Source: the human T2T-CHM13v2.0 reference genome, Homo sapiens
Assembly (NCBI RefSeq): GCF_009914755.1
Contig: NC_060930.1
Strand: one strand, 5' to 3'
Length of the DNA stretch: 64,000 bases
In this document: positions 2,211 to 51,906 of the stretch, one piece after another
Position numbering within the stretch: position 1 is the stretch's first letter
Layout: each line of letters opens with the position of its first letter
Notes under the pieces: model-generated
Database searches by the model: none
Told to the model about the DNA's origin: nothing
What the model saw: only the letters and a program-made list of their open reading frames with translations
Made by a program: the position numbers and the translations under genes

Positions 2211-5200
2211 TCAATTCCCACCTATGAGTGAGAATATGCGGTGTTTGGTTTTTTGTTCTTGCGATAGTTTACTGAGAATGATTTCCAATTTCATCCATGT
2301 CCCTACAAAGGACATGATCTCATCATTTTTTATGGCTGCATAGTATTCCATGGTGTATATGTGCCACATTTTCTTAATCCAGTCTATCATTGATGGACAT
2401 TTGGGTTGGTTCCAAGTCTTTGCTATTGTGAATAATGCCGCAATAAACATACGTGTGCATGTGTCTTTATAGCAGCATGATTTATAGTCCTTTGGGTATA
2501 TACGCAGTAATGGGATGGCTGGGTCAAATGGTATTTCTAGTTCTAGATCCCTGAGGAATGGCCACACTGACTTCCACAATGGTTGAACTAGTTTACAGTC
2601 CCACCAACACTGTAAAAGTGTTCCTATTTCTCCGTATCCTCTCCAGCACCTGTTGTTTCCTGACTTTTTAATGATTGCCATTCTAACTGGTGTGAGATGG
2701 TATCTCATTGTGGTTTTGATTTGCCTTTCTCTGATGGCCAGTGATGATGAGCATTTTTTCATGTGTTTTTTGGCTGCATAAATGTCTTCTTTTGAGAAGT
2801 GTCTGTTCATGTCCTTCACCCACTTTTTGATGGGGTTGTTTGGTTTTCTCTTGTAAATTGGTTTGAGTTCATTGTAGATTCTGGATATTAGCCCTTTGTC
2901 AGATGAGTCGGTTGCGAAAATTTTCTCCCATGTTGTAGGTTGCCTGTTCACTCTGATGGTAGTTTCTTTTGCTGTGCAGAAGCTCTTTAGTTTAATTAGA
3001 TCCCATTTTTCAACTTTGTCTTTTGTTGCCATTGCTTTTGGTGTTTTGGACATGAAGTCCTTGCCCACGCCTATGTCCTGAATGGTAATGCCTAGGTTTT
3101 CTTCTAGGGTTTTTATGGTTTTAGGTCTAACGTTTAAGTCTTTAATCCATCTTGAATTGATTTTTGTATAAGGTGTAAGGAAGGGATCCAGTTTCAGCTT
3201 TCTACATATGGCTAGCCAGTTTTCCCAGCACCATTTATTAAATAGGGAATCCTTTCCCCATTGCTTGTTTTTCTCAGGTTTGTCAAAGATCAGATAGTTG
3301 TAGGTATGCGGCATTATTTCTGAGGGCTCTGTTCTGTTCCATCGATCTATATCTCTGTTTTGGTACCAGTACCATGCTGTTTTGGTTACTGTAGCCTTGT
3401 AGTATAGTTTGAAGTCAGGTAGTGTGATGCCTCCAGCTTGGTTCTTTTGGCTTAGGATTGACTTGGCAATGTGGGCTCTTTTTTGGTTCAATATGAACTT
3501 TAAAGTAGTTTTTTCCAATTCTGTGAAGAAAGTTATTGGTAGCTTGATGGGGTTGGCATTGAATCTGTAAATTACCTTTGACAGTATGGCCATTTTCACG
3601 ATATTGATTCTTCCTACCCATGAGCATGGAATGTTCTTCCATTTGTTTGTATCCTCTTTTATTTCCTTGAGCAATGGTTTGTAGTTCTCCTTGAAGAGGT
3701 CCTTCACATCCCTTGTAAGTTGGATTCCTAGGTATTTTATTCTCTTTGAAGCAGTTGTGAATGGGAGTTCACTCATGATTTGGCTCTCTGTTTGTCTGTT
3801 GTTGGTGTATAAGAATGCTTGTGATTTTTGTACATTGATTTTGTATCCTGAGACTTTGCTGAAGTTGCTTATCAGCTTAAGGAGATTTTGGGCTGAGACA
3901 ATGGGGTTTTCTAGATATACAATCATGTCGTCTGCAACCAGGGACAATTTGACTTCCTCTTTTCCTAATTGAATGCCGTTTATTTCCTTCTCCTGCCTAA
4001 TTGCCCTGGCCAGAACTTCCAACACTATGTTGAATAGGAGTGGTGAGAGAGGGCATCCCTGTCTTGTGCCAGTTTTCAAAGGGAATGCTTCCAGTTTTTG
4101 CCCATTCAGTATGATATTGGCTGTGGGTTTGTAATAGATAGCTCTTATTATTTTGAAATATGTCCCATCAATACCTAATTTATTGAGAGTTTTTAGCATG
4201 AAGGGTTGTTGAATTTTGTCAAAGGCTTTTTCTGCATCTATTGAGATAATCATGTGGTTTTTGTCTTTGGCTCTGTTTATATGCTGGATTACATTTATTG
4301 ATTTGCGTATATTGAACCAGCCTTGCATCCTAGGGATGAAGCTGACTTGATCATGGTGAATAAGCTTTTTGATGTGCTGCTGGATTCGGTTTGCCAGTAT
4401 TTTATTGAGGATTTTTGCCTCAATGTTCCTCAAGGATTTTGGCTAAAATTCTCTTTTTTGGTTGTGTCTCTGCCCGGCTTTGGTATCAGAATGATGCTGG
4501 CCTCATAAAATGAGTTAGGGAGGATTCCCTCTTTTTCTATTGATTGGAATAGTTTCAGAAGGAATGGTACCAGTTCCTCCTTGTACCTCTGGTAGAATTC
4601 GGCTGTGAATCCATCTGGTCCTGGACTCTTTTTGGTTGGTAAACTATTGATTATTGCTAGAATTTCAGCTCCTGTTATTGTTCTATTCAGAGATTCAACT
4701 TCCTCCTGGTTTAGTCTCGGGAGAGTGTATGTGTCGAGGAATGTATCCATTTCTTCTAGATTTTCTAGTTTATTTGCGTAGAGGTGTTTGTAGTATTCTC
4801 TGATGGTAGTTTGTATTTCTGTGGGATCGGTGGTGATATCCCCTTTATCATTTTTTGTTGTGTCTATTTGATTCTTCTCTCTTTTTTTCTTTATTAGTCT
4901 TGCTAGCGGTCTATCAATTTTGTTGATTCGTTCAAAAAACCAGCTCCTTGATTCATTGATTTTTTGAAGGGTTTTTTGTGTCTCTATTTCCTTCAGTTCT
5001 GCTCGATTTTAGTTATTTCTTGCCTTCTGCTAGCTTTTGAATGTGTTTGCTCTTGCTTTTCTAGTTCTTTTAATTGTGATGTTAGGGTGTCAATTTTGGA
5101 TCTTTCCTGCTTTCTCTGGTGGGCATTTAGTGCTATAAATTTCCCTCTCCACACTGCTTTGAATGTGTCCCAGAGATTCTGGTATGTTGTGTCTTTGTTC

Positions 5201-6033
5201 TCATTGGTTTCAAAGAACATCTTTATTTCTGCCTTCATTTCGTTATGTACCCAGTAGTCCTTCAGGAGCAGGTTGTTCAGTTTCCATGTAGTTGAGCGGC
5301 TTTGAGTGGGATTCTTAATCCTGAGTTCTAGTTTGATTGCACTGTGGTCTGAGAGATAGTTTGTTATAATTTCTGTTCTTTTACATTTGCTGAGGAGAGC
5401 TTTACTTCCAAGTATGTGGTCAATTTTGGAATAGGTGTCGTGTGGTGCTGAAAAAAATGTATATTCTGTTGATTTGGGGTGGAGAGTTCTGTAGATGTCT
5501 ATTAGGTCTGCTTGGTGCAGAGCTGAGTTCAATTCCTGGGTATCCTTGTTGACTTTCTGTCTCGTTGATCTGTCTAATGTTGACAGTGGGGTGTTAAAGT
5601 CTCCCATTATTAATGTGTGGGAGTTTAAGTCTCTTTGTAGGTCACTCAGGACTTGCTTTATGAATCTGGGTGCTCCTGTATTGTGTGCATATATATTTAG
5701 GATAGTTAGCTCTTCTTGTTGAATTGATCCCTTTACCATTATGTAATGGCCTTCTTTGTCTCTTTTGATCTTTGTTGGTTTAAAGTCTGTTTTATCAGAG
5801 ACTAGGATTGCAACCCCTGCCTTTTTTTGTTTTCCATTTGCTTGGTGGATCTTCCTCCATCCTTTTATTTTGAGCCCATGTGTGTCTCTGCACATGAGAT
5901 GGGTTTCCTGAATACAGCACACCGATGGATCTTGACTCTTTGTCCAATTTGCCAGTCTATGTCTTTTAATTGGAGCATTTAGTCCACTTACATTTAAAGT
6001 TAATATTGTTATGTGTGAATTTGATCCTGTCAT
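2211..6033 (-). pseudogene. L1 ORF2p (endonuclease/RT) of element #1, frameshifted
   Basis: Runs from [14 protein letters not shown] (6033) to [10 protein letters not shown] (2211). Split into 4993..6033, 4430..4750 and 2211..4433 by 1-bp deletions near 5005 and 4443. RT motif reads VADD. Confidence 0.95.
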
Positions 6034-51007: not shown

Positions 51008-51906
51008 CTTTGTGGTTTTATGTACTTTTGGTCTTTGATGATGGTGATGTACAGATGGGTTTTGATATGGATGTCCTTTCTATTTGTTAGTTTTCCTTCT
51101 AACAGACAGGACCCTCAGCTGCAGGTCTGTTGGAATACGCTGCCGTGTGAGGTGTCAGTGTGCCCCTGCTGGTGGGTGCATCCCAGTTAGGCTGCTCAGG
51201 GGTCAGGGGTCAGGGACCCACTTGAGGAGGCAGTCTGCCCGTTCTCAGATCTCCAGCTGCGTGCTGGGAGAACCACTGCTCTCTTCAAAGCTGTCAGACA
51301 GGGACATTTAAGTCTGCAGAGGTTACTGCTGTTTTTTTGTTTGTGCCCTGCCCCCAGAGGTGGAGCCTACAGAGGCAGGCAGGCCTCCTTGAGCTGTGGT
51401 GGGCTCCACCCAATTCGAGCTTCCTGGCTGCTTTGTTTACCTAAGCAAGCCTGGGCAATGGCGGGCGCCCCTCCCCCAACCTCACTGCCGCCTTGCAGTT
51501 TGATCTCAGACTGCTATGCTAGCAATCAGCGAGACTCCGTGGGCTTAGGACCCTCCGAGCCAGGTACAGGATATAATCTCGTGGTGCGCCGTTTTTTAAG
51601 CCGGCCCGAAAAGTGCAATATTCGGGTGGGGGTGACCCGATTTTCCAGGTGCGTTCCTCACCCCTTTCTTTGACTCAGAAAGGGAACTCACTAACCACTT
51701 GCCGTTCCCAAGTGAGGCAATGCCTCGCCCTGCTTTGGCTCACGTACGGTGCGTTCACCCACTGACCTGCACCCACTCTCTGGCACTCCCTAGTGAGATG
51801 AACCCGGTACCTCAGATGGAAATGCACAAATCACCTGTCTTCTGCGTCGCTCATGCTGGGAGCTGTAGACCAGAGCTGTTCCTATTTTGCCATCTTGGCT
51901 CCTCCC
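51008..51906 (-). promoter_or_regulatory. L1 5'UTR of element #3
   Basis: Colinear with 7114-8018. The YY1 site 3' flank is altered (AAGATGGCAA). Confidence 0.85.
51458..51673 (+). CDS. L1 ORF0 (71 aa), open frame
   Basis: ATG at 51458 in gcaATGG context gives MAGAPPPTSLPPCSLISDCYASNQRDSVGLGPSEPGTGYNLVVRRFLSRPEKCNIRVGVTRFSRCVPHPFL*. Expression is not shown. Confidence 0.78.
   Translation: MAGAPPPTSLPPCSLISDCYASNQRDSVGLGPSEPGTGYNLVVRRFLSRPEKCNIRVGVTRFSRCVPHPFL

What the first reader, a model, noticed from the sequence alone, without database searches (positions are those of the whole stretch)
3014..51173. Two independently inserted full-length L1s share non-consensus, partly inactivating substitutions
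Seen, at a near-constant offset of ~43,894: RT motif VADD instead of FADD (3938/47832); VSFIPR for VGFIPG (4331, 4343-4 / 48225, 48237-8); LRNI for LMNI (4429/48323); KLPITF for KLPMTF (3534/47428); KDKV for KDKI (3014/46908); ORF1 KGLV for KGRV (6398/50293); ORF1 R49 stop (6969/50863); 5'UTR ctggTggg (7280/51173). L1 #2 is an internal control with the usual state at both sites it covers (ATG 24929-31; T 24459). The two elements have different TSDs, tails and target sites, so neither is a segmental copy of the other. Several shared changes are transversions rather than CpG decay, so chance recurrence is unlikely. Inference: post-insertion gene conversion between pericentromeric L1s, or an undescribed (possibly trans-mobilised) VADD source lineage.
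Basis: partly seen in the sequence, partly recalled or inferred. Interest (0 to 1): 0.85.

Follow-up and report, generated by a model that had tools for sequence, protein, structure and literature searches.

The report
Neighbouring dead L1 copies exchanging sequence
Four separately inserted, already broken L1 retrotransposons lying within 117 kb of satellite DNA next to the chromosome 6 centromere share rare base changes in a patchwork way, best explained by copying between neighbouring repeats (gene conversion), a known process.

Summary
Copies A (window 1999-8017, -) and B (45888-51906, -) are full-length L1s, 95.1% identical, with different target-site duplications. They share all ten listed bases.

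The listed alleles are of three kinds:
- The ORF1 stop is common CpG decay (346 copies genome-wide).
- The VSFIPR motif is the normal state of older L1 subfamilies. In A, B and partly D it is a 14-67-base older-type patch inside a young element.
- The VADD, LRNI, KGLV, KDKV and 5'UTR alleles are rare (6-24 copies each).

The VADD base occurs 7 times in 3.1 Gb, against 2456 copies with another base. Four of the seven are the only four L1s covering that site in a contiguous 117 kb: A, B, and two copies outside the window (C, D).

All four are independent insertions. A and C carry different 3' transductions, from chr1 and chr3, and both parent sites are now empty.

Rare-allele sharing among the four does not fit a tree. 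It far exceeds unrelated pairs: 6-7 against a mean of 0.26 per 3 kb for pairs among A, B and D. A and D share an exact 365-base run holding three rare alleles.

Best reading: local non-allelic gene conversion (about 0.7). This is a known mechanism and a modest example. No support was found for a VADD source lineage.

The parts
1999..8017 (-). L1 copy A, full length (6019 bases), both reading frames broken
   Evidence: Self-BLAST; ORF2 match to solved human ORF2p; two adjacent stops at ORF1 residues 49-50, and two private 1-base deletions in ORF2
510..1997 (-). 3' transduced sequence carried by copy A (about 1.49 kb of unique DNA), followed by a second poly(A) at 491-509
   Evidence: Read directly. 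Its single other genomic match is chr1:81227654-81229119, 98% over 1466 bases. No L1 lies upstream of that parent.
485..494 (-). 3' copy of copy A's target-site duplication; the 5' copy is at 8019-8028
   Evidence: The same 10 bases occur at both junctions, and the satellite monomer continues across the insertion
45888..51906 (-). L1 copy B, full length (6019 bases), both reading frames broken; A-rich tail at 45850-45893
45837..45849 (-). 3' copy of copy B's target-site duplication; the 5' copy is at 51910-51922, 12 of 13 bases identical
3938..3938 (-). The VADD base (element position 4080, T to G) in copy A; the same base is at 47832 in copy B
   Evidence: Genome-wide there are 7 copies with G and 2456 with another base.
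3755..4119 (-). 365-base run of copy A that is letter-for-letter identical to copy D (83 kb away); it contains 4040C, 4043C and the VADD base. Candidate conversion tract.
   Evidence: Longest exact common substring. 0 of 2000 random placements of the 243 A-D differences give a run this long. The longest run among 236 unrelated pairs of comparable divergence is 342.
4331..4344 (-). Older-subfamily patch in copy A (element 3674-3687, reads VSFIPR); the same patch is at 48225-48238 in copy B
   Evidence: Bounded by young-type bases at 3665/3666 and 3707. The patch joined to the young flank occurs only in A and B genome-wide. 17 of 17 sampled dispersed carriers are older copies.
3975..3978 (-). 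Second older-subfamily patch in copy A (element 4040C/4043C), shared only with copy D among young copies
   Evidence: 7 genome-wide matches. The 5 dispersed ones are 93.5-95% identical and carry older diagnostic bases that A-D lack.
23440..25081 (-). Partial L1 #2: 3' 1286 bases plus an inverted 355-base piece. It does not cover the VADD site and has the usual base at most locally shared sites.
8029..45836 (.). Tandem 171-base satellite array in which the L1s are embedded; it continues on both sides of the window
   Evidence: Over 200 copies with 169-171-base spacing at 60-90% identity. The name alpha satellite is recalled from the monomer sequence, not tested.

Best explanation
Four L1 retrotransposons inserted independently, at different times and from different source loci, into a 117 kb stretch of diverged 171-base satellite beside the chromosome 6 centromere. 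They are C at chr6:61171964-61177987 (+), A and B in the window, and D at chr6:61278752-61284770 (-). After insertion, as neutral dead copies, they exchanged short stretches of sequence by non-allelic (ectopic) gene conversion. A break or heteroduplex in one copy was repaired using a neighbouring copy as template, so private mutations of one copy, such as the T to G that turns FADD into VADD, were copied into the others. At least two micro-patches match the state of older L1 subfamilies (VSFIP(R) at 3674-3687/3712, and 4040C/4043C). They are best read as short conversions from older L1s elsewhere that were then passed around locally. Shown: independent insertion; rarity of the alleles genome-wide; their concentration in this neighbourhood; the pattern that does not fit a tree; the exact 365-base A-D run. 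Inferred: that the mechanism is gene conversion, its direction and timing, and the older-L1 origin of the patches.
For: 1. Independent origin. There are four different target-site duplications at different monomer positions. A and C carry different 3' transductions whose only other matches are chr1:81.23 Mb (98% of 1466) and chr3:190.93 Mb (about 100% of 294). The satellite flanks are only about 81% alike.
2. Rarity and clustering. The VADD 18-mer has 7 matches in 3.1 Gb against 2456 for the other bases. The contiguous 117 kb holds only C, A, #2, B and D as L1, so 4 of 4 local copies covering the site carry it.
3. Four-gamete conflict. VADD sits with 4040C/4043C in A and D, and with 3977G/4019C in B and C. 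It occurs with the VSFIP patch in A, B and D and without it in C, E, F and G.
4. Excess sharing. In 3 kb, alleles absent from all 19 background copies are shared AB 7, AD 7, BD 6, AC 3, BC 1, CD 1. The mean is 0.26 for 171 unrelated pairs (maximum 4) and 0.21 for 76 local-versus-unrelated pairs. D was found only through VADD, yet shares 5-6 further rare alleles with A and with B.
5. No tree fits. AB, AD and BD each have exclusive rare alleles.
6. The combinations are local only. None of the 22 dispersed LRNI copies matches a VSFIPR hit by coordinate. None of the 7 dispersed KGLV copies carries the 3687A allele by coordinate, as far as the listed hits allow. The patch with its young flank occurs only in A and B.
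7. Tract. There is an exact 365-base A-D run holding three rare alleles.
8. Published rates of non-allelic conversion (2.5e-7 per base per generation, tracts of about 250 bases; preprint 10.1101/135152, abstract and passages) make this amount of exchange expected over millions of years.
Against: There is no GC bias among the shared rare alleles (8 weak-to-strong against 13 strong-to-weak; private 89 against 155; odds ratio 1.07, p = 1), although conversion is reported to be GC-biased. Only 1 of 6 local pairs shows a significantly long identical run. That run (365) only just exceeds the longest among 236 unrelated pairs (342). Most shared rare alleles are flanked within tens of bases by private differences, so the tracts were short or old. 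No older L1 donor lies in the 117 kb, so the older-type patches need a distant donor. Background for the 5' 2.5 kb is only 6 copies, so rarity there rests on k-mer counts for three sites only. Neither source L1 could be genotyped because both parent sites are empty. Only one assembly was examined.
Confidence: 0.7

Rival explanations
1. A rare source lineage: A, B and D (and perhaps C) descend from closely related, possibly trans-mobilised source elements that already carried VADD and the other alleles. The sharing is then common descent.
For: A, B and D share several alleles along the whole element. Three further VADD copies exist elsewhere. Both source loci are gone, so their alleles cannot be checked.
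Against: A and C have different source loci. AB-, AD- and BD-exclusive alleles cannot all arise on one tree or in one evolving master element. No dispersed young copy carries the A/B combinations. 17 of 17 sampled dispersed VSFIP carriers and 5 of 5 carriers of 4040C/4043C are older subfamilies. Four of seven members landing in 117 kb of a 3.1 Gb genome is about 1e-11 by my own arithmetic.
Confidence: 0.08
2. Chance recurrence: the same mutations arose independently in each copy, helped by mutational hot spots.
For: Each rare allele also occurs in 3-22 unrelated dispersed copies, so recurrence does happen. The ORF1 stop is clearly recurrent, with 346 copies. Unrelated pairs share up to 4 rare alleles in 3 kb.
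Against: Observed sharing of 6-7 per 3 kb in three local pairs exceeds all 171 unrelated and all 76 local-versus-unrelated pairs. An allele at 0.28% frequency is present in 4 of 4 neighbours. Multi-base patches that match older subfamilies cannot recur by point mutation.
Confidence: 0.05
3. Assembly or polishing cross-talk: reads or corrections from one copy were applied to another, creating false shared bases.
For: The region is highly repetitive. Only one assembly was available here.
Against: The copies differ at 197-309 positions per pair. The shared bases are single sites scattered among these differences, not blocks of collapsed sequence. Each copy has unique flanks, and two have unique transduced tags. 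This was not directly tested.
Confidence: 0.05
4. Old local duplication: one L1 was copied by segmental duplication within the array, and the flanks were later replaced.
For: The copies lie in a tandem array that is prone to unequal exchange. Three of the four share an orientation.
Against: Each copy has its own target-site duplication at a different monomer position, with the monomer continuing across the insertion. A and C carry different transduced tags. The flanks are only about 81% alike, against 95-97% for the L1s.
Confidence: 0.02

Closest known systems
Non-allelic (interlocus) gene conversion between dispersed repeats, as documented for neighbouring Alu elements and for duplicated genes
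   Same: Independently inserted paralogous copies share derived alleles in a mosaic that contradicts their insertion history. Sharing is concentrated among physical neighbours. One tract of a few hundred bases is seen. The literature read here (passages of PMC6598467; abstract and passages of preprint 10.1101/135152) describes the same signatures and rates high enough to produce them.
   Different: The distances here are 20-103 kb, whereas the Alu signal is reported as elevated within less than 10 kb. No GC bias was detected. The elements are 6 kb L1s embedded in pericentromeric satellite. One partner (C) is inverted relative to the others.
Repair of a break in an L1 by conversion from other endogenous L1 copies, including diverged ones
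   Same: It would explain the two micro-patches that match older L1 subfamilies while no older L1 lies nearby.
   Different: Here the event is inferred from germline sequence. The donor is unidentified.
L1 subfamily or source-lineage structure (diagnostic substitutions inherited from a master element)
   Same: Alleles shared by several copies; the older-type states are true subfamily diagnostics in other copies.
   Different: In the four local copies the diagnostic states occur as isolated patches of 4-67 bases inside otherwise young sequence. The rare alleles have no dispersed carriers with the same combinations.
L1 3' transduction
   Same: A and C each carry unique downstream DNA between the L1 tail and a second poly(A), enclosed by the target-site duplication. 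Each has a single parent locus elsewhere.
   Different: Both parent loci lack the source L1 in this assembly. These are orphan transductions, and no sibling copies carry the same tags.

Membership tests
L1 (LINE-1) insertion by target-primed reverse transcription | Full element with 5'UTR, ORF1, ORF2 with endonuclease and reverse transcriptase, and 3'UTR ending in an A-rich tail | tested here: met
   ORF2 of A aligns to solved human ORF2p over residues 535-1274 at E = 0. ORF1 was read. All seven copies are 6008-6163 bases with A-rich tails.
L1 (LINE-1) insertion by target-primed reverse transcription | Target-site duplication flanking each copy, different for independent events | tested here: met
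   A has 10 bases, B 13 (12 identical), C 13 and D 8. Each is at a different monomer position.
L1 3' transduction | Non-L1 sequence between the L1 tail and a second poly(A), inside the target-site duplication, with a parent copy elsewhere | tested here: met
   A: window 510-1997, parent chr1:81227654-81229119, 98%. C: about 0.97 kb, parent chr3:190934745-190935038.
L1 3' transduction | Source L1 immediately upstream of the parent sequence | tested here: not met
   No L1 similarity in 6.4 kb upstream of either parent (blastn, E 1e-30). The sites are empty in this assembly.
Segmental duplication | Flanking sequence co-duplicated at an identity similar to the repeat | tested here: not met
   Flanks are about 81% alike, no better than any satellite monomer pair, against 95-97% for the L1s.
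Non-allelic gene conversion | Excess of shared derived alleles between physically close paralogs compared with distant ones | tested here: met
   AB 7, AD 7 and BD 6 against a mean of 0.26 for 171 unrelated pairs in 3 kb. The VADD base is in 4 of 4 local copies and 3 of about 2459 others.
Non-allelic gene conversion | Mosaic pattern that does not fit a tree (four-gamete conflicts) | tested here: met
   AB, AD and BD each have exclusive rare alleles. VADD sits on two flanking haplotypes.
Non-allelic gene conversion | Contiguous tracts of significantly raised identity | tested here: inconclusive
   The A-D exact run of 365 bases is reached in 0 of 2000 random placements, but the empirical maximum among 236 unrelated pairs is 342. 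The other five pairs are not significant.
Non-allelic gene conversion | GC-biased transmission | tested here: not met
   Odds ratio 1.07, p = 1, with only 21 informative shared alleles.
Non-allelic gene conversion | Pre-conversion state visible in orthologous copies of related species | not testable with these tools
   No other primate or human assembly is held.
Distinct L1 source lineage (VADD subfamily) | Dispersed copies that share the diagnostic allele together with other diagnostic alleles | tested here: not met
The A/B combinations have no other carrier.

The most novel reading that the evidence does not exclude
Diverged satellite layers beside centromeres are conversion-prone neighbourhoods. 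Unrelated L1 insertions up to about 100 kb apart, in either orientation, evolve partly in concert there and also pick up micro-patches from older L1s elsewhere. L1 subfamily typing and L1-based dating of these satellite layers would then be systematically distorted, and dead L1s could serve as built-in recorders of recombination where crossing-over is absent.
Probability: 0.25. Interest if true: 0.55.

Novelty: new member of a known kind. Interest (0 to 1): 0.35.

Why it matters
Gene conversion between dispersed repeats is established, so the mechanism is not new. The locus is still an unusually clean natural experiment. Four different target-site duplications and two different transduced tags prove independent insertion, so any sharing of rare alleles must have arisen after insertion.

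It shows exchange over 20-103 kb in a region where crossing-over is thought to be suppressed. It also warns that single 'diagnostic' bases in pericentromeric L1s can be acquired secondhand. That matters when L1 subfamilies are used to date satellite layers (passages of PMC2729386), and when shared substitutions are read as evidence of a new active lineage.

The VADD change has no functional meaning here, because every copy that carries it was already dead.

Tried and rejected
1. Both parents were found, but both are empty sites with no L1 in 6.4 kb upstream, and no sibling copies carry the tags. The test could not be done.
2. A lineage-matched control. I fetched 10 of the 31 dispersed copies with the VSFIPR 21-mer, and 7 of the 11 with the D-type 43-mer, expecting young relatives. 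All 17 turned out to be older subfamilies at 85-94% identity. This overturned my interim reading that VSFIP marks a young sub-lineage.
3. The 5 dispersed carriers of 4040C/4043C were likewise older copies, so they give no information on which of A and D was the donor.
4. The GC-bias test gave no signal.
5. The identical-run scan was significant for only 1 of 6 pairs, and only marginally against the empirical null.
6. My first global-alignment table gave unreliable letters for 9 of the 30 chr1 loci because they are truncated copies. It was replaced by BLAST-based mapping, in which loci under 94% identity were dropped from the background.
7. An idea that the G to A alleles at 3687 and 4484 reflect editing-type hot spots was not pursued. 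3687A proved to be an older-subfamily state. 4484A (96 copies) remains unexplained beyond recurrence.
It was replaced by two exact motifs matched by coordinate.
As a result, background for the 5' 2.5 kb is only 6 copies.
11. Subfamily names (L1PA2, L1PA3 and so on) were not assigned, because no repeat library is held. 'Young', 'intermediate' and 'older' are defined here only by identity to copy A and by shared diagnostic sites.
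Full report
**What is there.** The window is a tandem array of 171-base satellite monomers at 60-90% identity. The name alpha satellite is recalled from the monomer sequence, not tested. The array is interrupted by L1 sequence at three places:
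- Copy A, window 1999-8017.
- Copy B, window 45888-51906.
- A partial copy #2, window 23440-25081.

A and B are both on the minus strand, both 6019 bases, and 95.12% identical (280 mismatches over 6026 columns). I number element positions as 8017 minus window position plus 1.

- Against solved human ORF2p, copy A reads R for M, VSFIPR for VGFIPG, VADD for FADD, KLPITF for KLPMTF and KDKV for KDKI.
- ORF1 has a stop at residue 49 and reads KGLV.
- The two copies have different target-site duplications and tails.
- Copy #2 has the usual base at the two sites it covers.

**The finding extends beyond the window.** The VADD 18-mer occurs only 7 times in the 3.1 Gb assembly. The same 18-mer with any other base at that position occurs 2456 times.

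Four of the seven are neighbours:
- C at chr6:61171964-61177987 (+).
- A and B.
- D at chr6:61278752-61284770 (-).

The other three (E on chr6 at 98.55 Mb, F on chr15, G on contig 24) are far away. All seven are full length. I read the whole contiguous stretch chr6:61,170,000-61,286,999. It contains no other L1 sequence (blastn, E 1e-10). So 4 of the 4 local copies that cover the site carry a base found in about 0.3% of copies genome-wide.

**The four are independent insertions.** Each has its own target-site duplication at a different place in the satellite monomer, and the monomer continues across the insertion.

Copy A carries about 1.49 kb of unique DNA between its own A-run and a second poly(A) (window 510-1997 and 491-509). 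The only other genomic match is chr1:81227654-81229119 at 98% over 1466 bases. Copy C carries a different tag of about 0.97 kb. Its unique part matches only chr3:190934745-190935038 at about 100% over 294 bases. A and C therefore came from different source loci and, judging by tag divergence, at different times.

Neither parent has an L1 upstream in this assembly. Homology begins exactly at the tag.

All seven VADD copies are dead, with several stops and frameshifts each, most of them private.

**What the shared alleles are.** I polarised every difference among A-D against unrelated young copies from chr1: 19-29 copies for element positions 2576-5591, but only 6 for the 5' 2.5 kb. I then counted exact k-mers genome-wide.

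| Class | Allele | Local carriers | Genome-wide count (call) |
|---|---|---|---|
| Routine decay | ORF1 stop, a CpG transition | A, B, D | 346 (80) |
| Older-subfamily state | VS motif | A, B, D | 348 (21) |
| Older-subfamily state | R of IPR | A, B | 229 (25) |
| Older-subfamily state | Full VSFIPR 21-mer | A, B | 33 (42) |
| Truly rare | VADD | A, B, C, D | 7 (4) |
| Truly rare | LRNI | A, B | 24 (43) |
| Truly rare | KGLV | A, B | 9 (26) |
| Truly rare | 5'UTR change | A, B | 6 (78) |
| Truly rare | KDKV | A, B | 6 by B's 22-mer, which A does not match because of a private change beside it (79) |
| Unclassed | KLPITF | A, B, D | 96; not an older-type state (22, 58, 64) |

**The VSFIPR carriers are older copies.**
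- All 10 sampled dispersed VSFIPR carriers are only 86-91% identical to A.
- All 7 sampled carriers of the D-type version are 85-94% identical.
- They carry roughly a hundred diagnostic bases per 3 kb that A-D lack.

In A and B the older-type bases are confined to 3674-3687, between young-type bases at 3665/3666 and 3707. In D they run from 3674 to 3712, with the intermediate-type base at 3687, and are bounded by 3666 and 3734. The patch joined to its young-type flank exists only in A and B genome-wide.

**The sharing is local and does not fit a tree.**
- A and B share all ten.
- D shares five.
- C, E, F and G share only the VADD base.

Over the whole element every pair of local copies shares derived alleles: AB 10, AC 10, AD 13, BD 15, BC 5, CD 6, ABD 8.

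I then restricted the count to the well-sampled 3 kb and to alleles absent from all 19 full background copies:

| Comparison | Shared rare alleles per 3 kb |
|---|---|
| AB | 7 |
| AD | 7 |
| BD | 6 |
| AC | 3 |
| BC | 1 |
| CD | 1 |
| 171 unrelated pairs | mean 0.26, maximum 4 |
| 76 local-versus-unrelated pairs | mean 0.21, maximum 3 |

D was found through VADD alone, so its 5-6 further rare alleles shared with A and with B are an unbiased confirmation.

Three pairs each have exclusive rare alleles:
- AB: 3589, 3687, 5004.
- AD: 3161, 4040, 4043.
- BD: 4745, 4747.

No single tree, and no single evolving master element, can produce that.

Around the VADD base, A and D carry 4040C/4043C while B and C carry 3977G/4019C. 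The rare base therefore sits on two haplotypes within 60 bases.

Other rare alleles repeat the pattern of a local pair plus a few scattered copies:
- 4528T in A and C, 15 in all.
- 4745A/4747G in B and D, 5 in all.
- 4040C/4043C in A and D, 7 in all.

Across the genome these alleles are uncorrelated:
- None of the 22 dispersed LRNI copies coincides with a VSFIPR hit.
- None of the 7 dispersed KGLV copies carries 3687A, as far as the listed hits allow.
- None of the first 100 listed VS copies carries KLPITF.

**A tract.** A and D, 83 kb apart, are letter-for-letter identical over 365 bases (element 3899-4263, window 3755-4119). They differ at 243 positions overall. No random placement of those differences gave so long a run (0 of 2000). 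Among 236 unrelated pairs of comparable divergence the longest run was 342, so the run alone is significant only at roughly 0.005 after allowing for six pairs (my arithmetic).

What sets it apart is that it holds three rare derived alleles: 4040C, 4043C and the VADD base. The five dispersed carriers of 4040C/4043C are again an older subfamily. They are 93.5-95% identical and have at least ten diagnostic bases that A-D lack, including 4088T just downstream. This is a second older-type micro-patch, unique to A and D among young copies.

The other five local pairs show no significant run.

**Interpretation.** Independent insertion is shown. The concentration of rare alleles in neighbours, their mosaic distribution and the A-D run are shown. 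The simplest process that yields all of these is non-allelic gene conversion among the four copies after insertion, with occasional short conversions from older L1s elsewhere.

The literature I read supports this being an ordinary process:
- Passages of PMC6598467 summarise mosaic diagnostic patterns and distance dependence for Alu.
- The preprint 10.1101/135152 (abstract and passages) estimates 2.5e-7 conversions per base per generation with tracts of about 250 bases, slowing as copies diverge.
- PMC2834710 (listing and abstract only) argues that centromeres convert although they do not cross over.
- PMC2729386 (passages) uses L1 types to date satellite layers, a practice that such exchange could disturb.

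**Against this reading.**
- I found no GC bias.
- Only one tract is clear.
- Most shared alleles are closely flanked by private differences.
- The donors of the older-type patches are not in the 117 kb.

**Rivals.**
- *VADD source lineage.* It fails on the different source loci of A and C, the pattern that does not fit a tree, the absence of dispersed carriers of the combinations, and the odds against four of seven members landing together.
- *Pure chance.* It fails on the calibrated controls and on the multi-base patches.
- *Segmental duplication.* The junctions exclude it.
- *An assembly artefact.* It is unlikely given 197-309 differences per pair and unique flanks, but it was not tested.

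**Verdict.** The mechanism is known, the 'inactivating' changes have no consequence in copies that were already dead, and three of the listed alleles are ordinary. This is a clean, modest example of concerted evolution among neighbouring L1s beside a centromere.

Noticed in passing
L061 (chr1:200054105-200057120): This dispersed L1 is chimeric. It has older-subfamily diagnostic bases from element position 2584 to 3675 and young-type bases from about 3687 onward. The switch falls at the same place as the VSFIP patch of copies A, B and D.
   Followed up: no
L008 8290-8960 (chr6:61178289-61178959), inside copy C's transduced tag: Two Alu-like elements lie in tandem, each preceded by the same short motif (AAATTCAGAAATGG), which occurs three times. 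I did not check whether they were transduced with the tag or inserted later.
   Followed up: no
window 23440-25081: Partial L1 #2 consists of the 3' 1286 bases plus an adjoining inverted 355-base piece from further upstream in the element, the layout expected from twin priming. It shares one rare transversion (element 5151, C to G, absent from 27 of 27 background copies) with copy D only.
   Followed up: partly
chr1:81227654 and chr3:190935038 (L049, L050): Both parent loci of the transduced tags are empty sites with no L1 upstream, and no sibling insertions carry either tag. So two source elements that were once active have left no copy at their own locus in this assembly.
   Followed up: yes
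window 3534 / 47428 (element 4484): The G to A change giving KLPITF occurs in 96 dispersed copies, far more than other single changes counted here (5-24). It is not an older-subfamily state and is absent from 29 of 29 background copies. The reason for its high recurrence is unexplained.
   Followed up: partly
L010 and L011 (chr6:98.55 Mb, chr15:95.2 Mb): The dispersed VADD copies E and F are 6163 and 6155 bases long, with about 130-140 extra bases in the 5'UTR compared with A-D and G. This fits their belonging to a different, probably older, 5'UTR type.
   Followed up: no
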